Source: a virus
Lineage: Duplodnaviria > Heunggongvirae > Uroviricota > Caudoviricetes
Strand: one strand, 5' to 3'
IMG/VR virus record: IMGVR_UViG_3300011155_000013
Coordinates: 18,941 to 82,940 of that record
DNA: 64,000 bases
The position numbers and the translations under genes were made by a program. Below the pieces are notes generated by a model, which worked only from the letters and a program-made list of their open reading frames with translations, did no database searches and had not been told where the DNA came from. This document shows positions 1,869-63,733 of the stretch, piece after piece (position 1 is the stretch's first letter; each line of letters begins with the position of its first letter).

Positions 1869-1881
1869 CTTATTTACAGGT
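1869..1881. promoter_or_regulatory. degenerate copy of the dispersed motif (cTTAtttacaggt), upstream of the membrane-protein gene
   Basis: Seen in sequence. Confidence 0.3.
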
Positions 1882-1931
1882 TCGACGGCCGCCTTTACGC
1901 ACGGCCTGCTCGGGGAAGTTCATACCCACCT

Positions 1932-2234
1932 TTACGCGGCGGCAACCTTGGTCGTGCCACACCACGACGGAATCGGGGCGATGCGAAGGCGAGGGGCAGC
2001 CGGAACCTCGTCCACGACCTTTGGCCTGGCCCGATCCCATACCATCCAGGCGCTGTAACGCTGCTCGGTGTGGTCGCTGCCAAACAGGGTGCCAGCGAAG
2101 CGGGTAAACGGACCCAGGGCGTCGTCGTGGCCCAGGGTGAAGGCAACGAAGGCGATGACGCGCCCGTCCTCGTCCAGGAGGTGGGCGCGGGTGGCGCCGG
2201 GCTGGTTACTGCTGAACGGCTGGAAGTTGAACAT
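1932..2234 (-). CDS. hypothetical protein (100 aa)
   Basis: ORF 1932..2261. The internal ATG at 2234 has a strong GAGGAG SD 5 nt upstream. Confidence 0.45.
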   Translation of the reverse strand: MFNFQPFSSNQPGATRAHLLDEDGRVIAFVAFTLGHDDALGPFTRFAGTLFGSDHTEQRYSAWMVWDRARPKVVDEVPAAPRLRIAPIPSWCGTTKVAAA

Positions 2235-2254
2235 GAGGATCTCCTCGGGGCTCG

Positions 2255-2301
2255 TGGCCACCTTTACGTGCGGTTTACGTTGGCCACCTTTACGTGCGGT
2301 T
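2255..2301. repeat. 26-bp tandem direct repeat (ggccacctttacgtgcggtttacgtt x ~1.8) in the promoter region of the 100-aa gene; related CCTTTACGC boxes at 1887-1904 and 1926-1943
   Basis: Direct reading of the sequence. Confidence 0.8.
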
Positions 2302-2569
2302 AGCTCCAGCGGAACGGGACGCCGAGGTCGATGAGCTGCTCAAGCGCCCAGAAGTTGCCGGAATTGCGGTTGCGGCAGTCGAAAACGAGGGCGTCGCCGA
2401 GGTAGCTGGCGATCCACAGCCCACCAGGAAAGGTGACGACGGCATGGCGGTGGACCTCGCGGGAGAGGTTCTCGTCCTCGCCGTCTTCGTGGACCACGAA
2501 GTCGATGCGAACGTCGCACCCAGCCAGCGCCAGGTCCTCGAGCTGTGCTTCTACCTGACGTCCCATCAC
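2300..2569 (-). CDS. hypothetical protein (89 aa)
   Basis: ORF with an ATGA start/stop overlap with the upstream 142-aa gene. Confidence 0.4.
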   Translation of the reverse strand: MMGRQVEAQLEDLALAGCDVRIDFVVHEDGEDENLSREVHRHAVVTFPGGLWIASYLGDALVFDCRNRNSGNFWALEQLIDLGVPFRWS

Positions 2570-2994
2570 GCGGCTCCCAGGCTGTCGACGGCACGCAGCT
2601 GTTCGCCCAGGGCCTTGGCCAGGGCGTCGAAGTCGATGGCCTCGCCACGCTGCTCCATCAGCGCTGCAATCTCCTGCGGACGTTTGGCCAAGGCAGCCAC
2701 CATGTCGCGCTCACCGAGTTCGGCAGCGACGGCGGCAGCGGCCGGCAGGGCACCGGGATTCTCCAGGTAGTCGGAGAGCTTCAGGCGGCGCATCTTGATG
2801 ACCGAGTTGCTGCGGTACGGCCGGAAGTTGTGGCGCTCGGCGCAGATGTTCTGGGCCTTCTTGAACGCCGAGCCGTTGAAGTCGGCCGGAATGTACATGT
2901 GGTGGGTTTGGCCGGTCAGGGCGTGGGAGACGCTGACGAAGTAGACGTTGGGCAGCGGCAGGTCTGTATCGTGCGGCAGAGTGTGAGCTTGCAT
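2566..2994 (-). CDS. hypothetical protein (142 aa)
   Basis: ATG at 2994 is preceded by AAGGAA. Translationally coupled to 2300..2569. Confidence 0.5.
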   Translation of the reverse strand: MQAHTLPHDTDLPLPNVYFVSVSHALTGQTHHMYIPADFNGSAFKKAQNICAERHNFRPYRSNSVIKMRRLKLSDYLENPGALPAAAAVAAELGERDMVAALAKRPQEIAALMEQRGEAIDFDALAKALGEQLRAVDSLGAA

Positions 2995-3167
2995 GGCGTG
3001 ATTCCTTCAGGTGTGAGCCGGTTCTGGCGGTGAGATTCCCGTCACCTATTGGGTGAAGCTGCCGGCGTTTTTGGTGAATTTCGGCACTATTGCCGGTATT
3101 TTCCGGTACTTTTCCCGGACTTTTCAGGATTTTTTCAGCAGCCGTTCGGCGGCTTTCTCCAGGGCGC

Positions 3168-3200
3168 GGCGGGGTGTGCGTGTGTGTGTGCGCACGCGCG
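3168..3200. repeat. alternating purine-pyrimidine (GT/GC)n tract (gggtgtgcgtgtgtgtgtgcgcacgcgcgcg), potentially Z-DNA forming
   Basis: Direct reading of the sequence. Confidence 0.7.
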
Positions 3201-3202
3201 CG

Positions 3203-3232
3203 AAATAAAAAAAAAGCCGCCCGAAGGCGGCT
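3203..3232 (-). terminator. rho-independent terminator (GCCGCC-ttcg-GGCGGC followed by T9 on the minus strand)
   Basis: GC stem plus U-tract immediately downstream of the 3276 stop on the minus strand. Confidence 0.75.
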
Positions 3233-3241
3233 CATAGCAGA

Positions 3242-3256
3242 CCGTATTTACAGGTC
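3242..3256. promoter_or_regulatory. dispersed motif copy (ccgtatttacaggtc)
   Basis: Seen in sequence. Confidence 0.4.
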
Positions 3257-3275
3257 GACGGACGGATTCGTTCCG

Positions 3276-3992
3276 TTAGACGGCTGCGACCTTGCCGCCG
3301 GCGCGCTTCGACTTGCCAGCCTGACCGGATTTCAGCAGCTCGGCGGCCTTGTCAGCGTCGATAGGCTCGACTTTGCTAGCCAGTTGACTCGCAACAAAGT
3401 CAACCGTGACGAACAAGTCGGACAGTTGCTTGGCCAGTTCGCGGGCCTCCTCTGCCGTGGCGGAAAACGCTTTCGAGTTGATCGCGTCGAGCGCTTTGGT
3501 CAGTTGATTGGCGACGGTCGAAGCCTTCAGCGTGACCGGCTTTGGCTCTTTTGCGGCCTTTTCCAGCGTGCGCCACTCGTCGAAAGTTAGAGCGAAGTCT
3601 GCCGCGTCGACAATGGCGGGCTTGCCGGCGTCGTCGAGGTTCGCCGGGTTGGCGAACTTTTGAAAGCGCGGATTATCGGCCTTCATCCGGGCGACGATAT
3701 AGCGGCCGGTTTTGGCGTCGAGCTGAATTTGCGGCGCGTGCGCTTTGATATACGCGACCACTTCGCCGCCGAGTTTCGACAGCTTGCCAGTAGTAAGGCG
3801 AAACGCGCCATTTTGCAGCATGGCGTTCAATGGCTCGATGTTGTGGTGGGCAACGGCATGGATGGCGCAGTAGTTCGCCCATACAGTGATCGCCTCTGAT
3901 TGAGCGGCAAGGCCCTTGCCGAAAGCTGCGATCTGTTGAGCGGTGATGATTTTGCCGCGGATGGTTATGGATACTTTGTTGGCTTTGGACAT
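3276..3992 (-). CDS. hypothetical protein (238 aa) with a Lys/Ala-rich basic C-terminus; possibly DNA-binding
   Basis: Clean ORF followed by a terminator. No family recognised. Confidence 0.5.
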   Translation of the reverse strand: MSKANKVSITIRGKIITAQQIAAFGKGLAAQSEAITVWANYCAIHAVAHHNIEPLNAMLQNGAFRLTTGKLSKLGGEVVAYIKAHAPQIQLDAKTGRYIVARMKADNPRFQKFANPANLDDAGKPAIVDAADFALTFDEWRTLEKAAKEPKPVTLKASTVANQLTKALDAINSKAFSATAEEARELAKQLSDLFVTVDFVASQLASKVEPIDADKAAELLKSGQAGKSKRAGGKVAAV

Positions 3993-4264
3993 GATGAATT
4001 CCCCTATTCTTTAATGCTTTCTGCAATGTGCTCGCCAATCGGGCACATTGTCGAAGGCACTACGCGAGCGGCCGGCATCCAGGCCGCTCGATTAGTTTCC
4101 TTGCTCCGGTCGATAAGGCCGGTGTGAAGCGCGGGCATCGTTCGGCTTTGGCGCCGGCTTTGGCGGGACTGGCAAAGCTAGCAGGCGAACGACACGCGGG
4201 GCGCAGTAGTGGCGCAGATCGATGGTCGGAGCGTTAGGTTTTTAATGATCCGGCGACCGTATAA

Positions 4265-4279
4265 CTGTAAATACAGGTC
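4265..4279. promoter_or_regulatory. dispersed motif copy (ctgtaaatacaggtc) in the 1-kb non-coding region
   Basis: Seen in sequence. Confidence 0.5.
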
Positions 4280-4911
4280 GCCCAATGCAGTGCAAGCCGT
4301 CGTCTCGATCGTCGGGCATGGCTCCGCCCTGCATGCCCGTAGGCTGCAAAGCGGGGGCGCCATGCTCGCCGTGGCTTTGATCGTCGGGCGTGTCGTCTCT
4401 TGCGCTTTGGTTCCACTATCGGCAATCGGCGCCAGTGTCGCCGAAGGTTCGCCCGAAAGTGGTAGCGCCAGCCCTTGTCAGACAATGGGCGAGACTATCC
4501 GCAACGGCACAAACTGCGCCGTCGTGACTCAATCAAAGCCGCTCGGTCGGAGCGGCAAGCTAGCAGGTTTAAAGAACGGTCAAGGCAAGCGCAAGGCCAG
4601 CCAAGCGGGGCGATGGAGCCAGCCCCGGTGGCCATCAGTAACTGCCTGACCACGGAACAAACTATATACAAGCAAAACGATAGAAACAAGCGTCAAGCAT
4701 GGAAAAGCTAAGAATATAAAAGCATAAGAACATAGCCCCGCCCCCTCTTTTTGGTTATAGAAACCCCATACAGCCCGCCTACCTCCGCGAGCAAAATTTT
4801 TGCAAATTTCCTTTATGGTTATGTTGTTATCACAGTAATTCGCCGATTTTCGCTAAAAGTTGCACAGTCAGGCTTTACAACACTCGCCTCGCTGACTACC
4901 CTCCGAATCTT

Positions 4912-4935
4912 CAAATACAGGTTTACAGGTTCACA
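4912..4935. promoter_or_regulatory. two tandem half-sites (aaatacaggt ttacaggtt), about 30 nt upstream of the HU-like gene
   Basis: Seen in sequence. Confidence 0.5.
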
Positions 4936-4965
4936 GCCTGAATTCACACCAGATCGGAGTCCTCA

Positions 4966-8766: not shown

Positions 8767-8885
8767 GCTTCGCACCTTATCCCTGTGATTTCTGAGAGTA
8801 GCGGCAATCCGCCATTTCAGGCAAGCCACCCAGGGTAAATAGCCTATTGCGTCAAGGGGTTACATCCACAATAATCCGCCTAATT

Positions 8886-8907
8886 CCTGTAAACCTGTAA
8901 ATACAGT
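8886..8907. promoter_or_regulatory. half-site plus full motif (cctgtaaa cctgtaaatacagt), ending 2 nt before the portal ATG
   Basis: Seen in sequence. Confidence 0.5.
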
Positions 8908-8909
8908 TA

Positions 8910-12288: not shown

Positions 12289-12297
12289 AACTTGGCA

Positions 12298-12321
12298 AGC
12301 AGACCTGTAAATACAGGTCTG
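12298..12321. promoter_or_regulatory. 24-bp perfect palindrome gcagacctgta-aa-tacaggtctgc containing the motif, about 30 nt upstream of the major capsid gene
   Basis: Seen in sequence. Confidence 0.6.
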
Positions 12322-12352
12322 CTAACCCCCAGATATACAGGAAAAAGTCAGT

Positions 12353-15743: not shown

Positions 15744-16177
15744 TGCTGCAGTCCATGACTGATTCGCTCGCCTTCATCCGCGAGATCGTGTTTGAGCAGG
15801 TCACGCCAGGGACCCGGTTCGCGTTCAGTTTCACCGACGACGCTGACGTTGGCGACCTACAGGCCGGGCCGCTGTTCGACCAGAACGAGGAGTTCTTTCT
15901 GTTCGAGGCAGAGCTTGCCGACACCAAGCGGGCCGGCGTCAGTGCAGTCTCTCCGACCCGTTGCTGGGGGGAGTTGGTGGTCAGCCTGCTGACCAAGGAC
16001 AGCAGGCGGGAGATACCAAACAAGCGACGGCTGGAGGAGGTCTCCAACTGGTTCGCAGAACAGACGATCCGGGGTATCCGGTTTCGTACCTTCACCCCGT
16101 TGAGCACGGCGAAGGTGATGGGCTTCACGTCGTACAGCGGCGTGCTCAACTTTGATTTTGACATCTCGAGAGGGTAA
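15743..16177 (+). CDS. hypothetical tail completion or terminator-like protein (144 aa)
   Basis: Position immediately before the major tail gene. Confidence 0.35.
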   Translation: MLQSMTDSLAFIREIVFEQVTPGTRFAFSFTDDADVGDLQAGPLFDQNEEFFLFEAELADTKRAGVSAVSPTRCWGELVVSLLTKDSRREIPNKRRLEEVSNWFAEQTIRGIRFRTFTPLSTAKVMGFTSYSGVLNFDFDISRG

Positions 16178-16181
16178 CCCT

Positions 16182-17216
16182 ATGCCAGTCAAGAGCTTTA
16201 CCGATACCTCCGCCGTTTCGCTGGCATACGCGATCGGTGACGGAACCACTGCCGCCGAGTTCGCCGGCCAGACGTTCAACTACATCCCCTTCACCACCGA
16301 AGGGTTCAACATGGCCAAGGAGGCGAAAACCTCCACTGCGATCACCAACGATCGCCGCCAGAGCAACTCCAAGAACACCAAAGGCAGCGCATCCGGTGCG
16401 GTCACCATGGAGTTCGGCGCCACGCCGTTTATCCAGGACATGCTGTCGCTGGGGCTGATGAACGAGTGGACTCCGGTCGATGAACTGGACACCACCAAAG
16501 GCGTGTTCATCACCGACGGCGACATCAAGAAGTTCATGGCGGTGGAGAAGACGGCCAAGAGCGGACCGGATGCCACCGACACGCTGTTCCATGAGCGCTA
16601 CTACGGCACCATGGTCAACGACTTCACCCTGGAGTTCGGGGACGGTGAGCTGATCACCATGGCACTGAACACCATTTCGATGTTCGCCGATTACGGCAAG
16701 GCGGCTGCAGGCGCCGACGGCCTCGGCGGCAGTATCGCAACTGCGAAAGCGGTACCGGCTGACTATGAGATCGCCGACAGCTCCAACAACCTGAAGAACC
16801 TGATCCTCAAGGATCCGGAGGGCAATGCCCTGGAGGTTGTGTTCTCGGACGCATCGCTGCAGATCCAGAACAACGTCCGCGAGCAGTCCGGCCTGGGCTT
16901 CGAGTTCGCCGCCGGCGTGGGTATGGGTAAGGTAGGCGTCGCGCTGTCCGGCGAGATCTACTTCTTCGACCAGACCATGCTGGACGCGCACATGAAGAAC
17001 AAGCGTCTGTCCGGTGAAATGACCGTCGATACGGCGGAGGGCACGTTCCATATCCTCCTGCCGAACCTGGTTGCGCAAAGCCCGTCGAACAGCGCTGACG
17101 GCGAGAACCAGGACTACAAGACCTCGCTCACCTTGACGGCTGAGAAAGGCACCGTAGAGATCGGTGGCGTGCAGCGTGTCTGCGCCGTGGCTATCACCTA
17201 CGTCGCCAAACCGTAA
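16182..17216 (+). CDS. major tail protein
   Basis: 344 aa. GAGAGG SD. Position before the chaperones and tape measure. Confidence 0.55.
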   Translation: MPVKSFTDTSAVSLAYAIGDGTTAAEFAGQTFNYIPFTTEGFNMAKEAKTSTAITNDRRQSNSKNTKGSASGAVTMEFGATPFIQDMLSLGLMNEWTPVDELDTTKGVFITDGDIKKFMAVEKTAKSGPDATDTLFHERYYGTMVNDFTLEFGDGELITMALNTISMFADYGKAAAGADGLGGSIATAKAVPADYEIADSSNNLKNLILKDPEGNALEVVFSDASLQIQNNVREQSGLGFEFAAGVGMGKVGVALSGEIYFFDQTMLDAHMKNKRLSGEMTVDTAEGTFHILLPNLVAQSPSNSADGENQDYKTSLTLTAEKGTVEIGGVQRVCAVAITYVAKP

Positions 17217-17238
17217 ATACGGAAAGCTGTAAATATGG
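17211..17238. promoter_or_regulatory. ccgtaaatacgg plus ctgtaaatatgg motif variants between the major tail and chaperone genes
   Basis: Seen in sequence. Confidence 0.5.
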
Positions 17239-17292
17239 CCGTCCATCCAGTAGGATGACGGCCATCTTCATAAGCACGACCAAGGAAATCAC

Positions 17293-21000: not shown

Positions 21001-23342
21001 TCAAAGCCGACAAGCTGAGTATCGACCAGCTCCGCGAGCGCAACGCGACCATCCAAGCGACCCTCAACTCCAAGGGCGCCGGACTCGACCAAGCCACGCG
21101 CGACTCGCTCCAAGCCATGGTCGAGGCGAACACCTACCAGATCACCCAGTTCGAAAAGCACATCGATGCTACGAACAAGAAGCTGTCCGAGATGGGAAGT
21201 TCGGCGCTGGACGCTGTCCGGGTTCAGGAAGACCAGATCACTGCTGCTCAGAAAGTGGTGGAGACCTACGAGCAGTACCTGGCTGCCAAAGCCGACCTCG
21301 ACGCCAAGGCCGCTTCAGGCACAGCCACCGCACAAGACATGGATGGATTGAAAGCCGCTGAGGCAGCCTGGAGAAGTGCTCTGACTGTGGCGGCGTCGAC
21401 CAATGCGAAGATCGCCGAGGTGAAGGAAAACCTCGTCTCCTTGGCTGAAATCTCTTCGGCGGACGCGGCCAAACAGGATCAAGAGGCTCTGGCCAAACAA
21501 CTGGAGAAGGACGCCAGCGCCACCCAAAAACTCGCCACCGCGCGCGGAGAACTGCTTCGGGTTGATCGGGAGATCAGTGAGCTGGCCGCGCAGGATAAGG
21601 CAGCCATTGAAGCGGGAACTGCGCGCCCAGGTCAGGACACCTACAACCGGCTGAGTGACAAACGGGCTGAGGTCTCAAAGCAGATCGCTGAGCTGGAGGC
21701 GGAGGCCAAAGGGGAGGCTGATGCACTATCTGAGGCCCGCCGCGCCCTGGAGGACTTCTACCGCACGGACCAGGAGAACCTGGCCGAGCTGCAGGAGGAC
21801 CTGGCCGATGTGATGCTGCTGCGTGTGATCAATAACCAGTTGATCGCCGAGGGCGGGCAGCTCGGGGCCGAGGCATCGGTCGCTGAGGCTGATCGCCTGA
21901 AGAAAGAACTGCAGATCCGTCAGGCGATTGCCTCTCTCAACGAGAAAATCAACAAGCCCGCCAAGAAGGGCAAGGAAGAGACGGAACACGAGCGGAACCT
22001 GAAGCAGGCTCAGTCGAGCTACGACGCACTGCGCAAGCAGGCCGACCCCCTTAGCGCCTCTCTGGATGAGGTCAACGAGAAAACCAAGCAGCTGGAACTG
22101 CTGCATAAGAACGGAAAAATCACTGCCGAGCAAAAAGCGAAGGCTATCTGGCAACTGCGCAAGGCCCACTACGAGCTGGCCATCGAGCAGAACGCCAACT
22201 ACCAGTCGCTTGAGAAACTCCGCGATTCCTACTTGGACTCGCCGTTCTCAGAAACGCTGGACGACATGAATGAACTGAACCGCTTGCTCAGGGAGAACAA
22301 CGTCTCCTTGGCCGAGTACAAGCGGATCAAGGAGTCGATCAGAGAGCGCGCTGTAGAGAGCGCAACCAACGGCCTACCAACGGCAAATTTGCAGATGGGT
22401 GAGGCTTCCTCAGGCCCATTCAGCGACTGGATGAGCACTGAGATTGAACGTGCCCAGGGGCTGGGTCAGTTCGGCAAACGGAAGGAAGACCTGTTTACTG
22501 GGTACGAGAATGACACCGACCGTATCCATCGTGAGTTCGAGGCTCGTCAAGCAGCCCTAGACGCGGAGTTTTTGCAAGAGTCTGAGCACGCCGAGCGGAT
22601 GAAAACCCTGGAGCGGGAAAAGAACTCAGCCCTCCTGGCAGCCCACGACCAGTTCAGCGAGGCAAGTAAAGCCGTCGACGCCGACCGTGTTCAGTACGCG
22701 GAGCAAATGAACACGATGGTCACCATGTCGATGCTGGCAACTGCACAGAACGTGCTCGGGATGTTCGCCAGTGCCGGAGAGGACGCCACGACGGCCCAGA
22801 AAGTTGCTTTCGTCGCGCAAAAGGCTTTGGCCGTTGCTCAAATCCTTATGTACACACATCTGGCCGCAGCCCGAGCGGAGGCCGAGCTAGGAGTTGTCGC
22901 CGGTACGCCGATGGCGGCAAAAATTCTGGCGCTTGGTTATGCGAACGCTGGAATCGTCGCCGGGCTCGCGGTGGCCGAAATGTCAGGAGCCGGGACAGGA
23001 GGCGGCTCCTACTCTGGTGCCTACGACGACGGCGGCTTCATCCCCTACAACTCCTACGGCATCGTCGGCGAGTACGGCCCTGAGATCGTGCACGGCCCGG
23101 CCAACGTCACCTCCCGAGAGAAATCGGCGAAGAAGCTGTCAGGTGGAAGCCAAGAGTACAACATCACCCTTGCGCCGCAGATCACCGTACAAGCCGCGGA
23201 AGGTACGCAAGACTCTGCGACCGCCAACGCACAGGCAAGGGAAATGGCAACGATCGTGAAGGGGGTTGTGATTTCAACGATGCGGGATCAAACCCGCGCT
23301 GGCGGCTTGCTGGACAACTGGATCAAATCGCAGAGGGGGTGA
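18084..23342 (+). CDS. tail tape measure protein (1752 aa)
   Basis: Very long coiled-coil-rich protein with a hydrophobic C-terminal region. Canonical siphovirus position. Confidence 0.85.
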   Translation: MSNKFDVDFSEALRQLAEFQAKTRGLGESLDKVQQSAKAPIGAAGKLMKEMHKHFSDLETALTRVGVDAEAAGAAVKRSRETAQGLFTKLAADNLTLTTRARAYNGELKELERLLKDTGAKSSFVKWAERTNNITAELSNQNRYLVKAIQAALTAEGQYNQRLKAKLATNQRILNSQEALKLKAIELEHAIHQLETAEGRAAASAGVRLAANRRAITEDERRREKLNELERQYASLHGGMEQEIVLLQRQIAERRKQILGDDKARQSISALTQAQAEQNAQLARQSSALKAQNQAIQETANGLHRMTRAEAEAVAKAEALRAANKRTTDSLLDEARAAHGMSKAQLELNRAKQSEIDKLERLKVQRDLLSGSYGRDLAQTRRQIAEQERYNRLLAMTTAELLGLTNAQRRLSVAQATGSQSAAMMRAGLAGLHTSIGMYTSATIVAASSTYAIAAGLRSAVTVGTEFSATMARADAIMSTSRPAWMADNGSMAAMEVQVRALGQSTAYTASQVAEGLGELGMAGLSAGDAVLALRPSLDLAMIGNIGMGQSADIATNVMMTFGKTAGELTEVVDVMATAVTNSNTTIEQLANSLTYAGPAAQTAGISMRDTVAAIEAMANSGIKSSRSGTALRRLFVSLVNPTKKGAAMMEQYGISVLDAEGKTRGLVDIVTQLNKALSNVSGAERLGAIQDLVGVYATSPVAALVDQADNLVHLRNQLDNVAGAAERMREKIEDTLSKDWNQVVSAFQEVQLTAFDAYEMRMREGSMRLAQWLVQLTEPIETLADGSTISQLDMILQRAESLARVIGNLALGFVAFKAATVGSSLVGALASDMGKLGTVYDVLKAKAGSAAVGVRAFDAASLKAAASARLQYAANHPLAASLNVVGSTARGATAALGGLSVAVGALSKALGWVGLLWGIYEAGKAAFGSDARQDIIDQRAEVDNLKSSYEQLKEEMKKVSLEKEKDALRGNVKADKLSIDQLRERNATIQATLNSKGAGLDQATRDSLQAMVEANTYQITQFEKHIDATNKKLSEMGSSALDAVRVQEDQITAAQKVVETYEQYLAAKADLDAKAASGTATAQDMDGLKAAEAAWRSALTVAASTNAKIAEVKENLVSLAEISSADAAKQDQEALAKQLEKDASATQKLATARGELLRVDREISELAAQDKAAIEAGTARPGQDTYNRLSDKRAEVSKQIAELEAEAKGEADALSEARRALEDFYRTDQENLAELQEDLADVMLLRVINNQLIAEGGQLGAEASVAEADRLKKELQIRQAIASLNEKINKPAKKGKEETEHERNLKQAQSSYDALRKQADPLSASLDEVNEKTKQLELLHKNGKITAEQKAKAIWQLRKAHYELAIEQNANYQSLEKLRDSYLDSPFSETLDDMNELNRLLRENNVSLAEYKRIKESIRERAVESATNGLPTANLQMGEASSGPFSDWMSTEIERAQGLGQFGKRKEDLFTGYENDTDRIHREFEARQAALDAEFLQESEHAERMKTLEREKNSALLAAHDQFSEASKAVDADRVQYAEQMNTMVTMSMLATAQNVLGMFASAGEDATTAQKVAFVAQKALAVAQILMYTHLAAARAEAELGVVAGTPMAAKILALGYANAGIVAGLAVAEMSGAGTGGGSYSGAYDDGGFIPYNSYGIVGEYGPEIVHGPANVTSREKSAKKLSGGSQEYNITLAPQITVQAAEGTQDSATANAQAREMATIVKGVVISTMRDQTRAGGLLDNWIKSQRG

Positions 23343-23692
23343 AAATGGACGAATTCCTTGCCGCAGGAGCCCCCGACTGGGGGATCTCCGATGAACCTAA
23401 GGCCGACGTAATCGAGGTCCGTCTCGGCGACGGATACACGCTGAGGCAGCCAACCGGCATAAACCATGTGAGAGACGGTTGGTCGCCGGTATGGTCAGGT
23501 CTTGAGAAAGAGGATGCCAGGGCCGCTTACGCATGGCTGCGTTCACGGTTAAAGCTGACTCCGTTCCTATGGGTTCACCCAGTTACTGGGCAACCGGTGA
23601 AGGTCATCTGCCAGTCGGTCAGGCTGGAATATAACCAGTTCAACGACGAGATTCTGTCCGCCACGTTCGAGCAGGATTTCAACCCCTCCTGA
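23339..23692 (+). CDS. minor tail protein, lambda gpM-like
   Basis: 117 aa directly after the tape measure. Confidence 0.5.
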   Translation: MKMDEFLAAGAPDWGISDEPKADVIEVRLGDGYTLRQPTGINHVRDGWSPVWSGLEKEDARAAYAWLRSRLKLTPFLWVHPVTGQPVKVICQSVRLEYNQFNDEILSATFEQDFNPS

Positions 23693-23715
23693 CCTGTATT
23701 TACATAAATACAGGT
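23692..23715. promoter_or_regulatory. acctgtattta-ca-taaatacaggt extended palindrome between the gpM-like and gpL-like genes
   Basis: Seen in sequence. Confidence 0.55.
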
Positions 23716-30511: not shown

Positions 30512-30527
30512 ACCTGTAAATACGGTT
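30512..30527. promoter_or_regulatory. acctgtaaatacggtt, ending 5 nt before the tail fibre ATG
   Basis: Seen in sequence. Confidence 0.5.
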
Positions 30528-33348: not shown

Positions 33349-33640
33349 GCTGGACCTGACCGCCTACGTGGCCCGCTACGGCCGCCGGCCCTACTGGCTG
33401 TCGCTGCTGATCGCCCTGGATCAGTTCGTCAACGCGCTGCTGTGGGGCTACGTCGACGAAACGCTGTCGAGCCGGGCCTATCGGAGCGCCCAGCTGCGCA
33501 CGCCGGCGAAACGCCGCTGGCGGCTGGCTGAACAGCTGATCAATGCGCTGTTCTGGCGGGACCGCGTGGGCGAGCTGCGGCACTGCCAGCTGGCGTACCT
33601 GGGCGAACTGGCGCGCGAGCATTTACCCAAAGACCTGTAA
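33341..33640 (+). CDS. hypothetical protein (99 aa)
   Basis: ORF. Its stop lies inside a copy of the dispersed motif. Confidence 0.35.
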   Translation: MNKLDLTAYVARYGRRPYWLSLLIALDQFVNALLWGYVDETLSSRAYRSAQLRTPAKRRWRLAEQLINALFWRDRVGELRHCQLAYLGELAREHLPKDL

Positions 33641-33664
33641 ATAAGGGTTCCCATAAATACGGCC
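33632..33664. promoter_or_regulatory. split site cctgtaaata-(9 nt)-ataaatacgg, overlapping the stop of 33341..33640 and upstream of the spanin genes
   Basis: Seen in sequence. Confidence 0.45.
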
Positions 33665-40941: not shown

Positions 40942-41972
40942 ACCGCCACCTCCTTCGCCAACTCGCTGAACAGGTCAGCCAAATCGCTACCTTCCAACTC
41001 GCGGCTGATGCGGGTGCGCAGATCCTCGACTACCGGCTTCTCCGCCTCGTCGTCGACTACGTTCACGCCGGCCACCGAGACGCTGTTGCGAACTGCCAAT
41101 GCGTCCGGGGCGTTCTCCCACACCATCTGCATGAAGTCGGCGACAGCCACGGCCTCGTCCGCAGCGCCAATCACGTCGATGAACTGCACGCCACTCAGGT
41201 CCGGCAGCTCCTGACCGAACATGACTGACGCGAAGCGCTCGTCCTTGGACCAGATGCGGGTTTTGGTGAGATCAATGCTGTCGTCGGTGATCTCCAGCTG
41301 GTAGGAGAACTTGTCGCTGATATCGGCAAACGACGTCGGGTGCGTGTTGCCCAGGATCACCACTCGGCCGTCGAAGTGGGTGGACGGCTTGTGCTCGTGG
41401 CCGAGGAAGATGTAGTCGAACGACTCCAACAGCTTCTGCGCGATTGCCGGCGACAGGTTGAGGGTGTCGTCCTCGGTGGCGAAGGGCTGGTCGTAGTTGC
41501 AATGCAGCATCAAGACGCTGGCCCGGCCGGCGCGCTCACAGGCCGCATGCTCAGCGGCGTCCAGCATTGCCTGCTCGAACAGCTCCTGACTGGCGTGGTG
41601 CGGGACGAAGTAGAGCGGTTCGAAGTTGTCGAAGTAGGGCTCCGACAAGCTGGGCGAGGAGATGATCGCGCAGCCCATTTCCTGGAGCGCGCGGAGGCTT
41701 GTGATGGTCCCTTCGCGGTTGGTCTCGTCGTGGTTGCCGGCCAGCGTCCACATGCAGTTGCTGGCGATCTCGTAACCCTGGACCAAGATCGATTCGTCGT
41801 TGAAGGCGCGGTCGAACAGGTCGCCCAGGCAGATCGGCTTCTCCGCGTCCTCAATGACGTCCCACGCCTGCTTGAACAAGGCGAGGGTCAGGTGCTTGGA
41901 GGACTCGCGGGTGGTATGCGCTGCCCGGCGGGTGCCGAGGTGTGGATCGGTGAAGAGCGTATACGTCGTCAT
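40938..41972 (-). CDS. SbcD/Mre11-like metallophosphoesterase nuclease
   Basis: N-terminal DPHLG motif. The later GNHD and GHEH motifs are typical of the calcineurin-like nuclease family. Confidence 0.8.
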   Translation of the reverse strand: MTTYTLFTDPHLGTRRAAHTTRESSKHLTLALFKQAWDVIEDAEKPICLGDLFDRAFNDESILVQGYEIASNCMWTLAGNHDETNREGTITSLRALQEMGCAIISSPSLSEPYFDNFEPLYFVPHHASQELFEQAMLDAAEHAACERAGRASVLMLHCNYDQPFATEDDTLNLSPAIAQKLLESFDYIFLGHEHKPSTHFDGRVVILGNTHPTSFADISDKFSYQLEITDDSIDLTKTRIWSKDERFASVMFGQELPDLSGVQFIDVIGAADEAVAVADFMQMVWENAPDALAVRNSVSVAGVNVVDDEAEKPVVEDLRTRISRELEGSDLADLFSELAKEVAV

Positions 41973-42063
41973 AACAGGCTTCCTGTAATTACGGCACTAA
42001 GAGCCCACCCCGCCGCTTGCGCGGCGAGGAGGGTGACGGCGAAGTGGCGGAGGGCGCGGCGGG

Positions 42064-43382: not shown

Positions 43383-43406
43383 GTTGTGCTTCCGTTGTTA
43401 CGGGTT

Positions 43407-43429
43407 GCTGTATTTACAGCAATACAGGT
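43407..43429. promoter_or_regulatory. ctgtatttacag plus caatacaggtt, upstream of the DNA ligase gene (minus strand)
   Basis: Seen in sequence. Confidence 0.55.
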
Positions 43430-49067: not shown

Positions 49068-49077
49068 GGTGAACTCC

Positions 49078-49113
49078 TTAAATACGGGATCTATTGCCCC
49101 ATAAATACAGGTT
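49078..49113. promoter_or_regulatory. two half-sites (ttaaatacggg ... ataaatacaggtt) upstream of the Pol A gene; the proximal one overlaps its SD
   Basis: Seen in sequence. Confidence 0.5.
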
Positions 49114-52572: not shown

Positions 52573-52579
52573 TCTGCTT

Positions 52580-52595
52580 CCTGTAAATACAGGTT
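52580..52595. promoter_or_regulatory. cctgtaaatacaggtt, immediately upstream of and overlapping the SD of the ThyX-like gene
   Basis: Seen in sequence. Confidence 0.55.
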
Positions 52596-54243: not shown

Positions 54244-54255
54244 ACAGCGATCCGA

Positions 54256-55080: not shown

Positions 55081-55111
55081 TTTCCTTTTAGATCGTCAGT
55101 TGTCCGCATCG

Positions 55112-55156
55112 CTGTATCTACAGAAATACAGGAATACGGTCGTGGCTTTATACAGG
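55112..55156. promoter_or_regulatory. cluster of four sites or half-sites (ctgtatctacag, aaatacagg, aatacgg, ttatacagg) upstream of the 274-aa gene
   Basis: Seen in sequence. Confidence 0.55.
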
Positions 55157-59943: not shown

Positions 59944-59950
59944 GGCACCC

Positions 59951-61533: not shown

Positions 61534-61552
61534 GTGAGTTCCTTATGTAATG

Positions 61553-61575
61553 CTGTATACCTGTAAATACAGGTT
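61553..61575. promoter_or_regulatory. ctgtatac plus cctgtaaatacaggtt, upstream of the Dda-like helicase gene
   Basis: Seen in sequence. Confidence 0.55.
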
Positions 61576-61655
61576 ATTGGGCAGTACGTTTTCTTTTTAT
61601 GAAGTTCTAGCGCAAGCGGCGATGCTACCGGCTGCGTTCGAGGGCAGTCAACGGG

Positions 61656-61994
61656 TCATTTGACGACGCGGAGGGAAGGTCTTTGCTTGACGCGGGTTAC
61701 GCTGTTTTTGCGGGTTTCGGCCGCGACACACAGAGGGGCCACCGGCTGTGATCCGGCCCTGACCGCCTCCATCATCACCTCGGCGAGGGACAGGTTGTAG
61801 CGGGCAGCGGTGTTGATCATCACGGACAGATGAACATGGCCGATCCGTTCAAGGGTGGCTTCGGTCACGACGGACCTGGCAACCTCGAGATGGCGGTAGA
61901 TGTTGTCACGCAGGGCGTGTTCATCCACGTCCAGCTTGCATTTGCGGCTGAACTGCAGGGTGTACTGAACGACCTTCTCGTCGATGTCAGCCAT
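61656..61994 (-). CDS. hypothetical protein (112 aa)
   Basis: ORF 61656..62063. The internal ATG at 61994 is preferred because the upstream part is low-complexity. Confidence 0.35.
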   Translation of the reverse strand: MADIDEKVVQYTLQFSRKCKLDVDEHALRDNIYRHLEVARSVVTEATLERIGHVHLSVMINTAARYNLSLAEVMMEAVRAGSQPVAPLCVAAETRKNSVTRVKQRPSLRVVK

Positions 61995-62295
61995 AGAGTT
62001 GGACGACGTTCGCTTTCTCTTGGGCTCTGGGGAGCTCGGTTTTAGGGAAGACTGTGATGGCACTGATCAGTCGGCTGCGGCGCTGCGCGTCGGTCTCACC
62101 GTTGATAACTGCAGTTGCCCAGTCTGAGTACAGTGCATAGAGCACTTGGTCGGAGGTTGCGTCAACGACTTCCTCGCAGACTACGCTGTCCAGCTCCGAA
62201 AGGAACATTGTGATTGCGAAGTCCCTGCTGTCCGCAGTGCCTCTGCTGGAATGCTCAATCGATAGCCTGCGAAGCCTCGCCAGGCGATTGCTCAT
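61987..62295 (-). CDS. hypothetical protein (102 aa)
   Basis: ORF only. Confidence 0.35.
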   Translation of the reverse strand: MSNRLARLRRLSIEHSSRGTADSRDFAITMFLSELDSVVCEEVVDATSDQVLYALYSDWATAVINGETDAQRRSRLISAITVFPKTELPRAQEKANVVQLYG

Positions 62296-62304
62296 CAGAA
62301 CTCC

Positions 62305-62511
62305 TTACTCGACAGGTTTCGAGTATTTGGGGATGGTGTATTCGGTCAGTGCCTCGATCATCAGGTCCTTGGCGGATTTGCGGCTGAACGCTGCGATCTG
62401 CTTGAGCTTAGCGTGCAGCTCCTCCGGCATGTCCATGGTGAACTTCTTTTCTTGTCGGGCGAGGAGGTAGGAAGCCTGGAGGGACGATCCTACTGGATGG
62501 GCTTTAGGCAT
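62305..62511 (-). CDS. ribbon-helix-helix (Arc/CopG-like) DNA-binding protein
   Basis: 68 aa with an RHH pattern (KKFTMDMPEELHAKLKQIAAFSRKSAKDLMIEAL). Confidence 0.5.
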   Translation of the reverse strand: MPKAHPVGSSLQASYLLARQEKKFTMDMPEELHAKLKQIAAFSRKSAKDLMIEALTEYTIPKYSKPVE

Positions 62512-62559
62512 GGGGCAAAATCCTTTATGTCAATTAACGAGTAATTGAATCCTATTTTG

Positions 62560-62581
62560 GACCTGTATTGCTGTCAATACA
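62560..62581. promoter_or_regulatory. acctgtattg-ctgtc-aatacag inverted pair, upstream of the RHH gene
   Basis: Seen in sequence. Nearly identical to the reverse complement of the ligase-upstream copy. Confidence 0.55.
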
Positions 62582-62622
62582 GATTCAAGTATATAAGAAT
62601 TAAATTACGGTTAATCGGGGCT

Positions 62623-63261
62623 TCATGCCCAGGTTCTTGCGACTTCCCTCACGAACTCCCCCTTGGCGTTGCGTGCCAAGGTCACCTTCGCTTCTGCAGG
62701 TATGGCCACGATCTTGGCTGCGCCGGCTTCCGCTGCCTCCTCGTTTGCGTCCGACACTGCTCTGACAAGCTCAGGCGCTGAACGCCCTTCAATAGTCGCC
62801 AGCTCCTCTGTGGTGAACGGAGTGCCGCGGAGGTCGCCGGCCTTGTCGAGGACCTCTTGCTTCAGCCGCAGGCGATCAGCGCCTTTGGCAATAACCGCCA
62901 ATCGAAGGCCGTGCGGATCGTCAGGGCCTCCGGCAACGCCGAGGATCTCGACATCGGAGGGTGAAGGGCTGAGCAGGTATGATCGGTCGACGCTGCCTGG
63001 TGGGCAGGTCAGGTAAAGGGGGATGATTCGGTTTGTGGCCTGCAAGGGCGTGAGGTTGCTGTCGTACACCGCCTCGAGCAGCGGTCTAGGCAGGCCGAGG
63101 CCGGCTGGGCCGCTGGAATACAGCTTCTCTATCCTTGCCAGGAAGTCCAGGTAGTTGTCACGGTCTGCTCCGGCCCAGTGAAGGCGGGCGGGGCTTTTGT
63201 GAGTGTGCAGTGCTATGTAGGTGCCGCGTCTCGGAAGCGAGAGGGCAGTGAGGTACAGCAT
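62623..63261 (-). CDS. hypothetical protein (212 aa)
   Basis: ORF only. Confidence 0.4.
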   Translation of the reverse strand: MLYLTALSLPRRGTYIALHTHKSPARLHWAGADRDNYLDFLARIEKLYSSGPAGLGLPRPLLEAVYDSNLTPLQATNRIIPLYLTCPPGSVDRSYLLSPSPSDVEILGVAGGPDDPHGLRLAVIAKGADRLRLKQEVLDKAGDLRGTPFTTEELATIEGRSAPELVRAVSDANEEAAEAGAAKIVAIPAEAKVTLARNAKGEFVREVARTWA

Positions 63262-63395
63262 GACGACTCCTTGCGCGCAGGTTTGCTTGCCACTAGAATC
63301 GAAGGCGTGAATTCCTTCTTGCGCCGGCCCTTAAAGCCGGCGTTTCTTTTTCTGGTGGGCAAGCCTGCTAGCAAGGTGTCGCTCCGTCAAGCAGG

Positions 63396-63659
63396 TCAGT
63401 GTTTAGCCGCTTCCTCGGCGGTGTTGATCAGCTCGACAACCAGCGGCTTCGCTTTGTAGATCTTCTTGTTGTGTTGGCGCTCAAAGACAACTGCCCCCCC
63501 TTGGTTCAGGAGGCAGAGGTGTCGGGATGCGTTTGCCTGCGAGATTTCGAGACGGGCTGCCACGTCATTTACGCAAAGACCATTTTCCGTGTGCAGCAAC
63601 TGAACGATGTGCAGGCGGGTAGGGTGGGACAAACTGTTGAGCAATTCGGCAGACGACAT
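63396..63659 (-). CDS. ArsR/SmtB-family winged-HTH transcriptional regulator
   Basis: 87 aa with LSHPTRLHIVQLL...VNDVAARLEISQANASRHLCLL. Confidence 0.65.
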   Translation of the reverse strand: MSSAELLNSLSHPTRLHIVQLLHTENGLCVNDVAARLEISQANASRHLCLLNQGGAVVFERQHNKKIYKAKPLVVELINTAEEAAKH

Positions 63660-63691
63660 TCTTTTTCCTATAAGGTTCTGTGTTGGCTGGT

Positions 63692-63733
63692 GAATACAGT
63701 AATACAGGTCCGTAAATATGTAAATACAGGTCT
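63692..63733. promoter_or_regulatory. cluster of four sites (gaatacag, aatacaggtc, ccgtaaatatg, tgtaaatacaggtct) upstream of the ArsR-family gene and about 130 bp upstream of lepA
   Basis: Seen in sequence. Confidence 0.55.

What the first reader, a model, noticed from the sequence alone, without database searches (positions are those of the whole stretch)
1869..63733. Genome-wide dispersed near-palindromic motif ACCTGTA-AA-TACAGGT (about 17 intergenic loci)
A 12-16 bp motif occurs at about 17 places spread across 62 kb. Its core is CTGTA-(AA or TT)-TACAG, with CGG/CCG variants. All the full copies are intergenic, and they sit upstream of gene starts on both strands: portal, capsid, chaperones, gpL-like, tail fibre, spanins, ligase, Pol A, ThyX, the 274-aa gene, Dda helicase, RHH, ArsR and HU. 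It takes three forms: perfect palindromes (12298-12321, 23692-23715), tandem half-site arrays (4912-4935, 55112-55156, 63692-63733) and split sites (33632-33664). This architecture is what one expects for binding sites of a dimeric phage-encoded regulator, comparable in spirit to mycobacteriophage stoperators, or for a phage-specific promoter class. It does not fit E. coli-type LexA boxes (CTGT-N8-ACAG) and does not align to sigma54 -24/-12 spacing. Chance occurrence of so many copies of a 12-mer in 64 kb of 62% GC DNA is negligible.
Basis: seen in the sequence. Interest (0 to 1): 0.85.

Follow-up and report, generated by a model that had tools for sequence, protein, structure and literature searches.

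The report
Dispersed operator boxes of a prophage
A short near-palindromic DNA word repeated at about 20 gene boundaries of a Stutzerimonas stutzeri prophage is most likely the docking site of the phage's own repressor. Genome-wide silencing of this style is already known, but the site design here is new.

Summary
CTGTAWWTACAG occurs 6 times (0 expected), and degenerate forms mark 18 intergenic loci between 1869 and 63733. Non-coding DNA is 6.9% of the window but holds 25 of 31 WTACAGG copies.

The repeating unit is an 8-bp box (WTACAGGT). Boxes sit unspaced on an 8-bp lattice, in either orientation, 1 to 5 per locus.

The window is not a lytic phage. It is a prophage of about 78 kb integrated into the 5' end of host lepA in S. 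stutzeri.

The boxes are kept at orthologous positions in relatives. They are absent from host flanks and from the syntenic virulent phage Lana. Lana also lacks the att-proximal module: integrase, ArsR-like wHTH, a 212-aa protein and an Arc-like RHH. That module accompanies the boxes even in distant relatives.

Boxes overlap or directly follow the few conserved sigma70-type promoters (upstream of RHH, Dda and HU). Elsewhere they fill tiny gaps that touch stop codons and ribosome-binding sites.

Best reading: dispersed operator and roadblock sites of a phage repressor. They work like mycobacteriophage stoperators but are symmetric and arranged in arrays like RHH omega/MetJ operators. Whether the RHH or the ArsR-like protein binds is unresolved. 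This is a new variant of a known kind, of moderate interest.

The parts
1869..1881 (.). Box locus: single strong box TTTACAGGT with degenerate partners. It lies 29 nt upstream of a 61-aa gene on the minus strand (ATG 1839), which is followed by a weak Bro-N-like ORF.
   Evidence: A whole-gene insertion abuts it in relative L126.
3240..3255 (.). Box pair CCGTATTTACAGGT between the stop of gene 3276-3992 (minus strand) and a terminator at 3233-3214.
   Evidence: Relatives carry 1-2 extra genes between the box and the terminator.
4257..4278 (.). Three boxes (CCGTATAA CTGTAAAT ACAGGT) inside the 970-bp non-coding divergent control region.
   Evidence: Present in all 9 relatives; the centre flips AA/TT.
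4874..4902 (+). Candidate sigma70-type promoter P_HU: TTTACA-N17-TACCCT.
   Evidence: The hexamers are conserved while the spacer varies in relatives (sequence). Inference; the strict scan did not find it.
4912..4930 (.). Two direct boxes AAATACAGG TTTACAGGT. They start about +4 from P_HU and lie 36 nt upstream of the HU gene.
8885..8908 (.). Three boxes (CCTGTAAA CCTGTAAA TACAGTT). They end 3 nt before the portal ATG, in an 80-bp divergent gap.
   Evidence: Conserved down to L129.
12303..12341 (.). Perfect 16-bp palindrome, extended to 24 bp, plus a lone box TATACAGG, upstream of the major capsid gene.
   Evidence: two flanking pairs show compensatory change
17209..17240 (.). Two palindromes 16 bp apart (CCGTAAATACGG, CTGTAAATATGG). 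The first contains the stop codon of gene 16152-17216. A hairpin follows, then the tail assembly chaperone gene.
23692..23715 (.). 24-bp near-perfect palindrome of three boxes, abutting the stop of 23339-23692 and 41 nt upstream of the minor tail protein gene.
30512..30527 (.). Box pair ACCTGTAAATACGGTT, 5 nt upstream of the tail fibre ATG, which has no Shine-Dalgarno sequence.
33633..33664 (.). Two palindromes 16 bp apart. The first contains the stop of 33341-33640. TTCCCA-N17-TAGGAT follows, then the lysis cassette.
   Evidence: The promoter is an inference.
41981..41996 (.). Box pair CCTGTAATTACGG, overlapping the Shine-Dalgarno sequence of the SbcD-like gene on the minus strand.
43399..43429 (.). 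Four boxes, 16-25 nt upstream of the DNA ligase gene on the minus strand.
49074..49112 (.). Two palindromes upstream of PolA (true ATG 49067). The proximal one overlaps the Shine-Dalgarno sequence AAGGAG.
52579..52594 (.). Palindrome TCCTGTAAATACAGGT in a 24-bp gap, overlapping the Shine-Dalgarno sequence of the ThyX gene on the minus strand.
   Evidence: PF02511 on the orthologue
55110..55156 (.). Array of 4-5 boxes, 31 nt upstream of the 274-aa gene on the minus strand.
61551..61574 (.). Three boxes, 19 nt upstream of the Dda-like helicase gene on the minus strand. They lie in the transcribed leader, about 45 nt downstream of P_Dda.
61622..61651 (-). Sigma70-type promoter P_Dda: TTGACT-18-TAGCAT.
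   Evidence: The hexamers are conserved with a variable spacer in L170 and L175.
62549..62584 (-). Best sigma70-type promoter found in the window (TTGACA-17-TAGGAT, 10/12). Three boxes overlap its -35 element and spacer, 49 nt upstream of the RHH gene.
63693..63731 (.). Five-box array, 33 nt upstream of the ArsR-like gene and between it and attL/lepA. There is also a lone conserved box at 63775-63783.
63396..63659 (-). ArsR/SmtB-family winged-helix protein (87 aa). Candidate box binder.
62623..63261 (-). Conserved 212-aa protein of the module. No known family; the fold was not predictable.
62305..62511 (-). Arc-like ribbon-helix-helix protein (68 aa). Candidate box binder.
63868..64000 (+). 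5' end of host lepA, with the att-like core at 63890-63923. This marks the prophage end.

Best explanation
The motif is the operator code of a temperate phage.

The unit is an 8-bp box, WTACAGGT. Boxes are laid down without spacers on an 8-bp lattice, in either orientation, 1 to 5 per locus. The 16-bp palindrome ACCTGTAWWTACAGGT is simply two boxes facing away from each other.

Inferred mechanism: a phage-encoded DNA-binding protein from the att-proximal module (integrase | attP | ArsR-like wHTH | 212-aa protein | Arc-like RHH) binds these boxes on double-stranded DNA as dimers that line up along an array. Where boxes overlap or directly follow a sigma70-type promoter (P_RHH, the ArsR-like gene's own upstream region, P_HU, P_Dda), the protein blocks initiation or promoter escape and also autoregulates. 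Where boxes sit in tiny gaps between co-directional genes, it acts as a roadblock to read-through. Together these keep all three transcription blocks of the roughly 78-kb prophage silent and probably give immunity.

Shown: the sites, their lattice, their restriction to intergenic DNA, their conservation, their promoter overlap, the prophage state, and co-occurrence with the module.

Inferred: that a protein binds, which one, and that the effect is negative. My split for the binder is RHH about 0.4, ArsR-like about 0.4, 212-aa or other about 0.2.
For: 1. Statistics and location. 25 of 31 WTACAGG copies lie in the 6.9% of the window that is non-coding. In relative L145, 5 of 5 further copies lie in 22-53 bp gaps of the early region.

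2. Lattice. Same-orientation spacing is 8 in 9 of 9 adjacent pairs. Divergent spacing is 7, 15 or 23 (7 + 8n). Convergent spacing is 9, 9 and 7.

3. Symmetry without orientation. The centre switches between AA, TT and AT among orthologous sites. Arrays show no consistent polarity towards genes.

4. Conservation. In block A the box columns are 94-97% identical, against 75-77% for other intergenic DNA and 81-83% for coding DNA. Sites persist in L129, whose TerL is 85% identical.

5. Specific to the phage. There are no boxes in about 18 kb of host flank and none in the 88 kb of syntenic phage Lana. Lana also lacks the ArsR-like, 212-aa and RHH genes but keeps HU.

6. The phage is temperate. It is integrated at lepA in three S. 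stutzeri-type assemblies, and an excised form carries an integrase.

7. The module travels with the boxes through deep divergence. Boxes are unchanged where the ArsR-like protein is 44-52% identical and the RHH 52-59% identical. A remnant island keeps only the module and its boxes.

8. Operator-like placement.
- The best sigma70-like promoter in the window (TTGACA-17-TAGGAT) has its -35 element inside a box pair.
- P_Dda and P_HU have conserved hexamers with variable spacers, and boxes lie just downstream.
- No box array sits in the usual activator position upstream of a -35 element.

9. Precedent. Unspaced short repeats in direct and inverted orientation are how the RHH repressor omega is bound, one dimer per heptad, on arrays overlapping promoters (PMC4627068).
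Against: - No binding or expression data exist.
- Only 3-4 loci have a recognisable promoter next to the boxes. The strict sigma70 scan finds no more sites than chance across the window, so a roadblock role at the other loci is an assumption.
- Both candidate binders are present in every box-bearing genome, so co-occurrence cannot separate them.
- The RHH assignment rests on a modest PHROG hit (E = 4e-6) and on a source's name. The fold search gave only a non-significant Arc match.
- In some relatives the RHH gene carries a frameshift while the boxes are intact.
- The ArsR-like recognition helix differs at 3 of 9 positions in L170 while the boxes look the same.
- The comparison with Lana involves a distant relative (TerL 59% identical) and is a single contrast.
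- Portal and tail-fibre genes have a box 3-5 nt before an ATG with no Shine-Dalgarno sequence. That could instead mean leaderless transcripts starting at the box.
Confidence: 0.6

Rival explanations
1. Positive control. The boxes are binding sites of a phage activator, or part of a phage-specific promoter, that switches on middle and late operons. On this view each locus is a transcription start region rather than a block.
For: - Recognisable sigma70 promoters are at or below chance level in the 30-kb late block, so late genes need some other signal.
- Boxes sit at sensible operon heads: HU/terminase, portal, capsid, tail chaperone, minor tail, tail fibre and lysis.
- TGTAAATA resembles the T4 late -10 element TATAAATA (my own knowledge). 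At the portal and tail-fibre genes it would place a start at or next to an ATG that has no Shine-Dalgarno sequence.
- In all 7 late-block sites the centre reads AA in the direction of the gene.
Against: - The centre flips to TT or AT at the capsid site in five relatives, so orientation is not constrained.
- Arrays have no polarity.
- The distance to start codons ranges from 3 to 54 nt.
- Where promoters are identifiable, the boxes overlap the -35 element or lie downstream of the start, not upstream.
- No RNA polymerase or sigma factor appeared in Pfam scans of about 60 proteins.
- Syntenic Lana expresses the same late genes without any such motif.
- Boxes are also in front of early and replication genes and of the regulators themselves.
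Confidence: 0.2
2. RNA-level element. The palindrome acts as a hairpin in the mRNA, for example as a translational operator that hides the Shine-Dalgarno sequence, a processing or stability site, or a factor-dependent terminator.
For: - Several copies overlap the Shine-Dalgarno sequence or abut start codons (41983, 49076, 52579, 8885, 30512).
- Perfect copies fold at -9 kcal/mol, and the capsid copy at -16.6 kcal/mol.
- At the capsid site two flanking pairs change in a compensatory way. The flanks of 4263 do likewise.
Against: - Direct-repeat arrays cannot fold (0 kcal/mol), and the portal and tail-fibre copies reach only -2.1 kcal/mol.
- Beyond the 16-bp core, flank complementarity is at chance: 31 of 114 positions, P = 0.33.
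- What is conserved is the stem sequence, not merely the pairing.
- The copy at 4263 and those upstream of promoters need not be transcribed.
- There is no Rfam match.
Confidence: 0.05
3. The boxes are not a dedicated phage regulator site. Either they bind a host protein or the phage HU-like protein (nucleoid structuring), or they are mainly recombination boundary sequences that shuffle gene cassettes between related phages.
For: - Whole-gene insertions and deletions in relatives abut boxes at 1869 and 3240, as with boundary sequences and with T4-type promoter/stem-loop cassettes (my own knowledge).
- An HU gene lies directly behind one array.
Against: - There are no boxes in 18 kb of host flank.
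- There is no LexA-type spacing.
- HU is kept in Lana, which has no boxes.
- Boxes inside conserved, non-mosaic regions (capsid, portal, Dda) are as well kept as those at indel junctions.
- Cassette junctions at regulatory sites are an expected side effect of short shared sequences, not evidence of their primary function.
Confidence: 0.1

Closest known systems
Stoperators and operators of the Cluster A mycobacteriophage immunity repressor (L5 gp71, TipsytheTRex; PMC9283540)
   Same: - More than 20 copies of one short site are spread over a temperate phage genome.
- They lie both at promoters and in short intergenic spaces between co-directional genes.
- The proposed dual action is the same: block initiation and block elongation.
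   Different: - L5 sites are 13-bp asymmetric, bound by a monomer with two HTH-type domains, and work in only one orientation relative to transcription.
- Here the sites are symmetric, built from 8-bp boxes in arrays, and orientation-free.
- The candidate binders are an ArsR-type wHTH or an RHH protein.
- The host is a gamma-proteobacterium.
Omega (RHH) repressor operators of plasmid pSM19035 (PMC4627068) and MetJ met-box arrays (my own knowledge)
   Same: - Short repeats (7 bp for omega, 8 bp for MetJ, 8 bp here) are unspaced.
- They occur in direct and inverted combinations.
- The minimal unit is two repeats.
- Arrays overlap promoter -35 regions, including the regulator's own promoter.
- A small RHH gene is next to one of the arrays.
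   Different: - Omega controls 3-4 promoters with 6-10 heptads each. Here there are about 20-25 loci with mostly 2-3 boxes.
- The box sequence is unrelated.
- Binding of the RHH to the boxes is not shown.
Dispersed operators of phage P1 C1 repressor and the conserved inverted repeats (CIRs) of Streptomyces phage phiC31 repressor (my own knowledge; the paper search found no usable source)
   Same: One repressor has many operators scattered over a large temperate phage genome. The phiC31 sites are inverted repeats near early promoters and terminators.
   Different: - P1 operators are asymmetric 17-mers.
- phiC31 CIRs are single 17-bp palindromes, not lattice arrays.
- The repressor families are different.
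ArsR/SmtB-family operators (structures listed)
   Same: The module encodes a clear family member (PF01022/PF12840). The family binds as dimers to imperfect inverted repeats at its own promoter.
   Different: - The known family role is sensing metal or stress at one operon.
- The protein here has CVN where arsenic sensors have CVC.
- It would serve as a genome-wide prophage repressor.
- Direct 8-bp repeats are not typical of the family.

Membership tests
Cluster A mycobacteriophage stoperator system | Many (>20) copies of one site dispersed over a temperate phage genome, at promoters and in short intergenic spaces | tested here: met
   18 intergenic loci in the 64-kb window, plus 5 more in the early region of relative L145. 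The prophage state is shown.
Cluster A mycobacteriophage stoperator system | Site is asymmetric (13-mer) | tested here: not met
   The core is a palindrome of two 8-bp boxes. The centre switches between AA, TT and AT.
Cluster A mycobacteriophage stoperator system | Orientation of sites correlates with the direction of transcription | tested here: not met
   Arrays show no consistent polarity towards genes. Orthologous sites are inverted between relatives.
Cluster A mycobacteriophage stoperator system | Bound by a monomeric gp71-type repressor (HTH plus stoperator domain) | tested here: inconclusive
   Pfam and PHROG scans of the module and of about 60 window proteins gave ArsR-type and RHH proteins only. 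No direct comparison with gp71 was run. About 14 kb of the prophage lies outside the window.
RHH repeat-array operators (omega / MetJ type) | Unspaced short repeats (7-8 bp), at least 2 contiguous, in direct and/or inverted orientation | tested here: met
   8-bp lattice: same-orientation spacing of 8 in 9 of 9 pairs, divergent spacing of 7, 15 or 23.
RHH repeat-array operators (omega / MetJ type) | Cognate ribbon-helix-helix protein encoded with the sites | tested here: inconclusive
   - Gene 62305-62511 matches phrog_582 'Arc-like repressor' with E = 4e-6.
- UniRef names it 'ribbon-helix-helix domain-containing'.
- The model shows strand-helix-helix order at pLDDT 69.
- The PDB fold match to Arc has E = 9.6 and is not significant.
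RHH repeat-array operators (omega / MetJ type) | One dimer bound per repeat, with cooperative assembly along the array | not testable with these tools
   Needs EMSA, footprinting or a structure.
RHH repeat-array operators (omega / MetJ type) | Arrays overlap the promoters they control, including the regulator's own | tested here: met
   TTGACA-17-TAGGAT upstream of the RHH gene has boxes over its -35 element and spacer. This arrangement is conserved in L154, L158, L161 and L175.
ArsR/SmtB repressor and operator | HTH_5/HTH_20 winged-helix protein | tested here: met
   PF12840 at 4.9e-10 and PF01022 at 9.9e-9. The profile hits ArsR, CadC, BigR, SmtB, CzrA and NolR chains.
ArsR/SmtB repressor and operator | Imperfect inverted repeat (12-2-12 type) at its own promoter | tested here: inconclusive
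   A five-box array with inverted pairs lies 33 nt upstream of the gene. The geometry is an 8-bp lattice, not 12-2-12.
ArsR/SmtB repressor and operator | Metal- or ligand-sensing residues (for example the CXC motif of helix 3) | tested here: not met
   All orthologues down to 52% identity have GLCVN(D/E), not CVC.
LexA / SOS box | CTGT-N8-ACAG | tested here: not met
   0 matches in the window. The motif here is CTGT-N4-ACAG.
Phage-specific promoter (own RNA polymerase or sigma factor) | Phage-encoded polymerase or sigma factor, and sites in fixed orientation to genes | tested here: not met
   No such protein was found. Orientation is not fixed. TSS positions are not testable here.
Integrase arm-type sites | Repeats confined to the arms of attP | tested here: not met
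   Boxes are spread over 62 kb. The attP arms carry a different repeat, TATGTACRC.

The most novel reading that the evidence does not exclude
A small ribbon-helix-helix protein (or an ArsR-family protein that has lost its metal site) is the master repressor of a 78-kb temperate siphovirus. It silences the whole genome by lining up on about 25 arrays of unspaced 8-bp boxes, acting at promoters and as orientation-independent roadblocks inside operons. That would be a symmetric, array-based counterpart of stoperators in a Gram-negative host. Induction would run through a route other than LexA-type self-cleavage: no S24 repressor and no SOS box was found.
Probability: 0.3. Interest if true: 0.6.

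Novelty: new variant of a known kind. Interest (0 to 1): 0.45.

Why it matters
- It gives the operator code and the likely regulon map of an uncharacterised lineage of temperate Stutzerimonas/Pseudomonas phages related to the virulent Lanavirus group. The boxes mark operon and cassette boundaries and so help annotation.
- If binding is confirmed, it extends genome-wide "stoperator-style" silencing beyond actinobacteriophages, with a different molecular solution: symmetric boxes on an 8-bp lattice and a small RHH or wHTH binder.
- It supplies a compact, orthogonal repressor/operator pair.
- The remnant island that keeps only the module and its boxes suggests a domesticated immunity cassette. 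This can be tested by superinfection assays.

Tried and rejected
1. Strand-specific feature (nick, primase or Chi-like site). I considered this because AATACAGGT is mostly on the + strand. I rejected it because the centre flips between orthologues and units occur in both orientations.

2. General extended hairpin. Flank complementarity beyond the 16-bp core is at chance. Folding energies range from 0 to -16.6 kcal/mol.

3. LexA box: none present.

4. Integrase arm sites: the arms carry a different repeat.

5. A scan of IMG/VR for the 14-mer gave mostly single chance hits. The multi-hit locus L009 is a coding tandem repeat in an unrelated low-GC phage.

6. Lana has no equivalent enriched motif of its own.

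7. The "ArsR" of Citrobacter phage Chris1 belongs to a real ars resistance operon and is irrelevant.

8. Homologue searches for the ArsR-like, RHH and 212-aa proteins found only narrow families: 6, 10 and 8 clusters. No independent lineage was available to tie a protein to the box.

9. The 212-aa protein could not be modelled (pLDDT 50), so I ran no fold search on it.

10. Two scans of species-representative genomes found no relative.

11. Four IMG/VR contigs end exactly at window position 62511. This looked like a physical genome end, but it is best explained by provirus trimming at a gene boundary, because other contigs and NCBI assemblies read through.

12. Global pairwise identity as a conservation measure is distorted by gene indels in the left arm. 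Site-by-site alignments are more reliable.

13. One Pfam call failed because of a wrong frame. I repeated it.

Full report
**Observation.** The motif is real and far beyond chance.
- CTGTAWWTACAG occurs 6 times against 0.00 expected.
- The 16-mer ACCTGTAAATACAGGT with up to 3 mismatches hits 13 loci against 0.10 expected.
- The degenerate palindrome CYGTAWWTACRG with up to 1 mismatch occurs 20 times against 0.45 expected.
- The half-site WWTACAGGT occurs 22 times against 0.38 expected.
- It is the most over-represented 10- to 12-mer of the window.
- With a GC3-based gene map only 6.9% of the window is non-coding, yet 25 of 31 WTACAGG copies lie there (P = 4e-24).

Three isolated half-sites lie in coding DNA (6595, 29387, 57669). 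The one at 6595 is lost in relatives.

**Anatomy.** Reading all loci side by side shows that the unit is an 8-bp box, WTACAGGT. Boxes are placed without spacers on an 8-bp lattice in either orientation.
- Neighbouring boxes in the same orientation are 8 bp apart in 9 of 9 cases, and 24 bp apart in one further case.
- Boxes facing away from each other have pentad starts 7, 15 or 23 bp apart (7 + 8n).
- Boxes facing each other are 9, 9 and 7 bp apart.

The "perfect palindrome" is therefore two boxes, and the "tandem arrays" and "split sites" are other tilings of the same lattice. The central dinucleotide is simply W-W. At orthologous sites it reads AA, TT or AT in different relatives, which amounts to inverting the site. 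Arrays show no consistent polarity relative to the downstream gene.

**What the window is.** The nearest isolated phages are Pseudomonas phages Lana and PMBT3, with only 72-77% nucleotide identity over the capsid and terminase genes, but the gene order is the same.

A look-up of the RHH protein showed the element integrated between host lepA and mucD-mucC-mucB-mucA-algU in several NCBI assemblies. An excised form shows integrase | attP | ArsR-like | 212 aa | RHH | ... | Dda. Sources name the host Stutzerimonas (Pseudomonas) stutzeri. Window 63868-64000 is the 5' end of lepA.

The phage is therefore temperate. It has three transcription blocks:
- early genes leftwards from about 4000;
- HU, packaging, structural and lysis genes rightwards from 4966 to 35443;
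- regulators, replication and nucleotide-metabolism genes leftwards from 63659 to 35403.

**Conservation and specificity.**
- Relatives in IMG/VR with TerL 85-99% identical carry the boxes at the same gaps.
- In the right arm the box columns are 94-97% identical. Other intergenic columns are 75-77% identical and coding columns 81-83%.
- There are no boxes in about 18 kb of flanking host DNA.
- There are none in the 88-kb Lana genome, which has no comparable enriched word of its own.
- Lana keeps the HU gene but has no homologue of the ArsR-like, 212-aa or RHH genes.
- The whole module recurs, with boxes unchanged, in much more distant phages: L175 (ArsR-like 44% identical), L153 (ArsR-like about 50% identical: 49%, 52%) and L170-L172 (RHH 52-59% identical).
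- A remnant island retains only the module and its boxes.

**Placement relative to signals.** Strict sigma70-type promoter matches are no more frequent than chance in the window.
- The best match, TTGACA-17-TAGGAT on the minus strand at 62577-62549, has its -35 hexamer inside a box pair upstream of the RHH gene.
- The second, TTGACT-18-TAGCAT at 61651-61622, lies about 45 nt upstream of the three boxes before Dda.
- Both hexamer pairs are conserved across variable spacers in L170 and L175.
- Upstream of HU, TTTACA-17-TACCCT shows the same footprint in relatives, and boxes start at about +4.
- The remaining loci lie 3-54 nt before start codons. Some overlap a stop codon (17214, 23690, 33638) or a Shine-Dalgarno sequence (41983, 49076, 52579).
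- In relatives, whole-gene insertions abut boxes at 1869 and 3240.

**Mechanism.** The combination is what is expected of operators of a phage repressor: symmetric units, lattice arrays, restriction to intergenic DNA, overlap with or position just downstream of promoters, presence in front of the regulators themselves, and linkage to an att-proximal regulator module in a prophage. Such a repressor would act on initiation at promoters and as a roadblock inside operons. I put this at 0.6.

**The binder is unresolved.**
- The 87-aa protein is a clear ArsR/SmtB-family winged-helix protein. Its recognition helix SQANASR and its wing are invariant down to 52% identity, and it lacks the CXC metal motif.
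- The 68-aa protein is Arc-like RHH by PHROG (E = 4e-6) and by a source's name. Its strand KKFT(M/L)DMP is invariant down to 52% identity. Its model is only moderately confident, and the Arc fold match is not significant.
- The unspaced-repeat geometry is the hallmark of RHH repressors such as omega.
- The 16-bp palindrome would also suit a wHTH dimer.
- Against the RHH: a frameshift in some relatives.
- Against the ArsR-like protein: three changes in the recognition helix in L170 with the boxes unchanged.
- HU is unlikely, because Lana keeps it without having boxes.

**Rivals.**
- An activator or promoter role (0.2) is suggested by the lack of ordinary promoters in the late block and by boxes abutting ATGs that have no Shine-Dalgarno sequence. 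It is disfavoured by orientation flips, variable distances to start codons, the position of boxes relative to identifiable promoters, the absence of a phage polymerase or sigma factor, and the absence of the motif in Lana.
- An RNA-hairpin role (0.05) fits only some copies. Folding energies run from 0 to -16.6 kcal/mol, and flank complementarity beyond the core is at chance. The capsid-site flanks do, however, show two compensatory pairs, which remains a local oddity.
- A host factor, HU, or a pure recombination-boundary role (0.1) is countered by the empty host flanks and by conservation in non-mosaic regions.
- LexA boxes, integrase arm sites and Rfam families are excluded.

**Comparison with known systems.** Functionally the closest system is the Cluster A mycobacteriophage repressor with its operators and stoperators. 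The sites here fail the defining features of asymmetry, orientation dependence and a monomeric two-domain repressor, so this works like that system but is not a member of it. Architecturally the closest are RHH repeat-array operators (omega, MetJ). The dispersed operators of P1 C1 and the phiC31 CIRs are further precedents, cited from memory. I rate this a new variant of a known kind, of moderate interest (0.45). Its score of 0.85 is too high for a regulon-type finding without binding data.

Noticed in passing
window 63868-64000 (+); att-like core 63890-63923: The window ends in the 5' end of host lepA. The phage integrates inside the first codons of lepA and supplies a replacement 5' end, and probably the promoter region. 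A duplicated lepA fragment marks the other prophage end in L145 and L149.
   Followed up: partly
window 63831-63851; L145 8400-8640: Direct repeats GCGTACATA (TATGTACRC on the other strand), two on each side of the att core. They are probably integrase arm-type sites and are distinct from the TACAGG boxes.
   Followed up: partly
L149 5580-7487: A remnant island holds only the ArsR-like, 212-aa, RHH, 102-aa and 80-aa genes between lepA and mucD, with its boxes intact. It is possibly a domesticated immunity cassette.
   Followed up: partly
window 500-1000: A low-GC island with a (TA)n run at 920-960 and two small low-GC3 ORFs (530-859), inside an otherwise 61% GC genome.
   Followed up: no
window 3993-4965: A 970-bp conserved non-coding stretch between the divergent early and late blocks. 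It is GC-rich and has terminator-like hairpins (4065-4090 on the plus strand, 4556-4538 on the minus strand). No Rfam family matches. It could be an origin or a non-coding RNA.
   Followed up: partly
window 29376-30379: Two genes just before the tail fibre have GC3 of 0.46-0.47, against 0.75-0.9 elsewhere. This suggests a recently imported host-range cassette.
   Followed up: no
window 12297-12322 and 4250-4284: At these two box loci the flanks beyond the 16-bp core stay complementary through double substitutions in relatives (GCAGACC..GGTCTGC to TCGGACC..GGTCCGA; GGCGAC..GTCGCC to GGCAAC..GTTGCC and GCCGAC..GTCGGC). Other loci do not show this.
   Followed up: yes
L158 4505-4832, L160 2939-3266: The RHH gene carries a frameshift in an A7 run in one sub-lineage, leaving a 43-aa product that lacks most of the DNA-binding strand. 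This could be a sequencing error, slippage or decay.
   Followed up: partly
window 1016-1849 (-): Weak Bro-N (antirepressor-type) match, E = 0.002 and below the Pfam cut-off, in the gene downstream of the box at 1873.
   Followed up: no
window 63321-63343 (+): A strong terminator-like hairpin with a T-run between the ArsR-like and 212-aa genes. It is oriented against both genes, so it would stop antisense transcription heading towards lepA.
   Followed up: no
window 41281-41375 (+): ARAGORN calls a 95-nt tRNA-Ile inside the SbcD-like gene, which is on the opposite strand. This is probably a false positive.
   Followed up: no
window 62511; IMG/VR contigs 3300013923_000004, 3300011498_000007, 2546826722_000003, 3300011889_000039: Four public viral contigs end exactly at the RHH start codon. 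This is probably provirus trimming that wrongly left the ArsR-like and 212-aa genes and attL outside the predicted virus.
   Followed up: partly
window, all palindromic box pairs: The centre reads AA on the window's plus strand at 14 of 17 sites, although it flips between orthologues. This is a weak strand bias that nothing so far explains.
   Followed up: partly
window 49067 versus 49223: The true PolA start is probably ATG 49067, preceded by AAGGAG, not the longest-ORF GTG at 49223. The two box palindromes lie in the gap this creates.
   Followed up: partly
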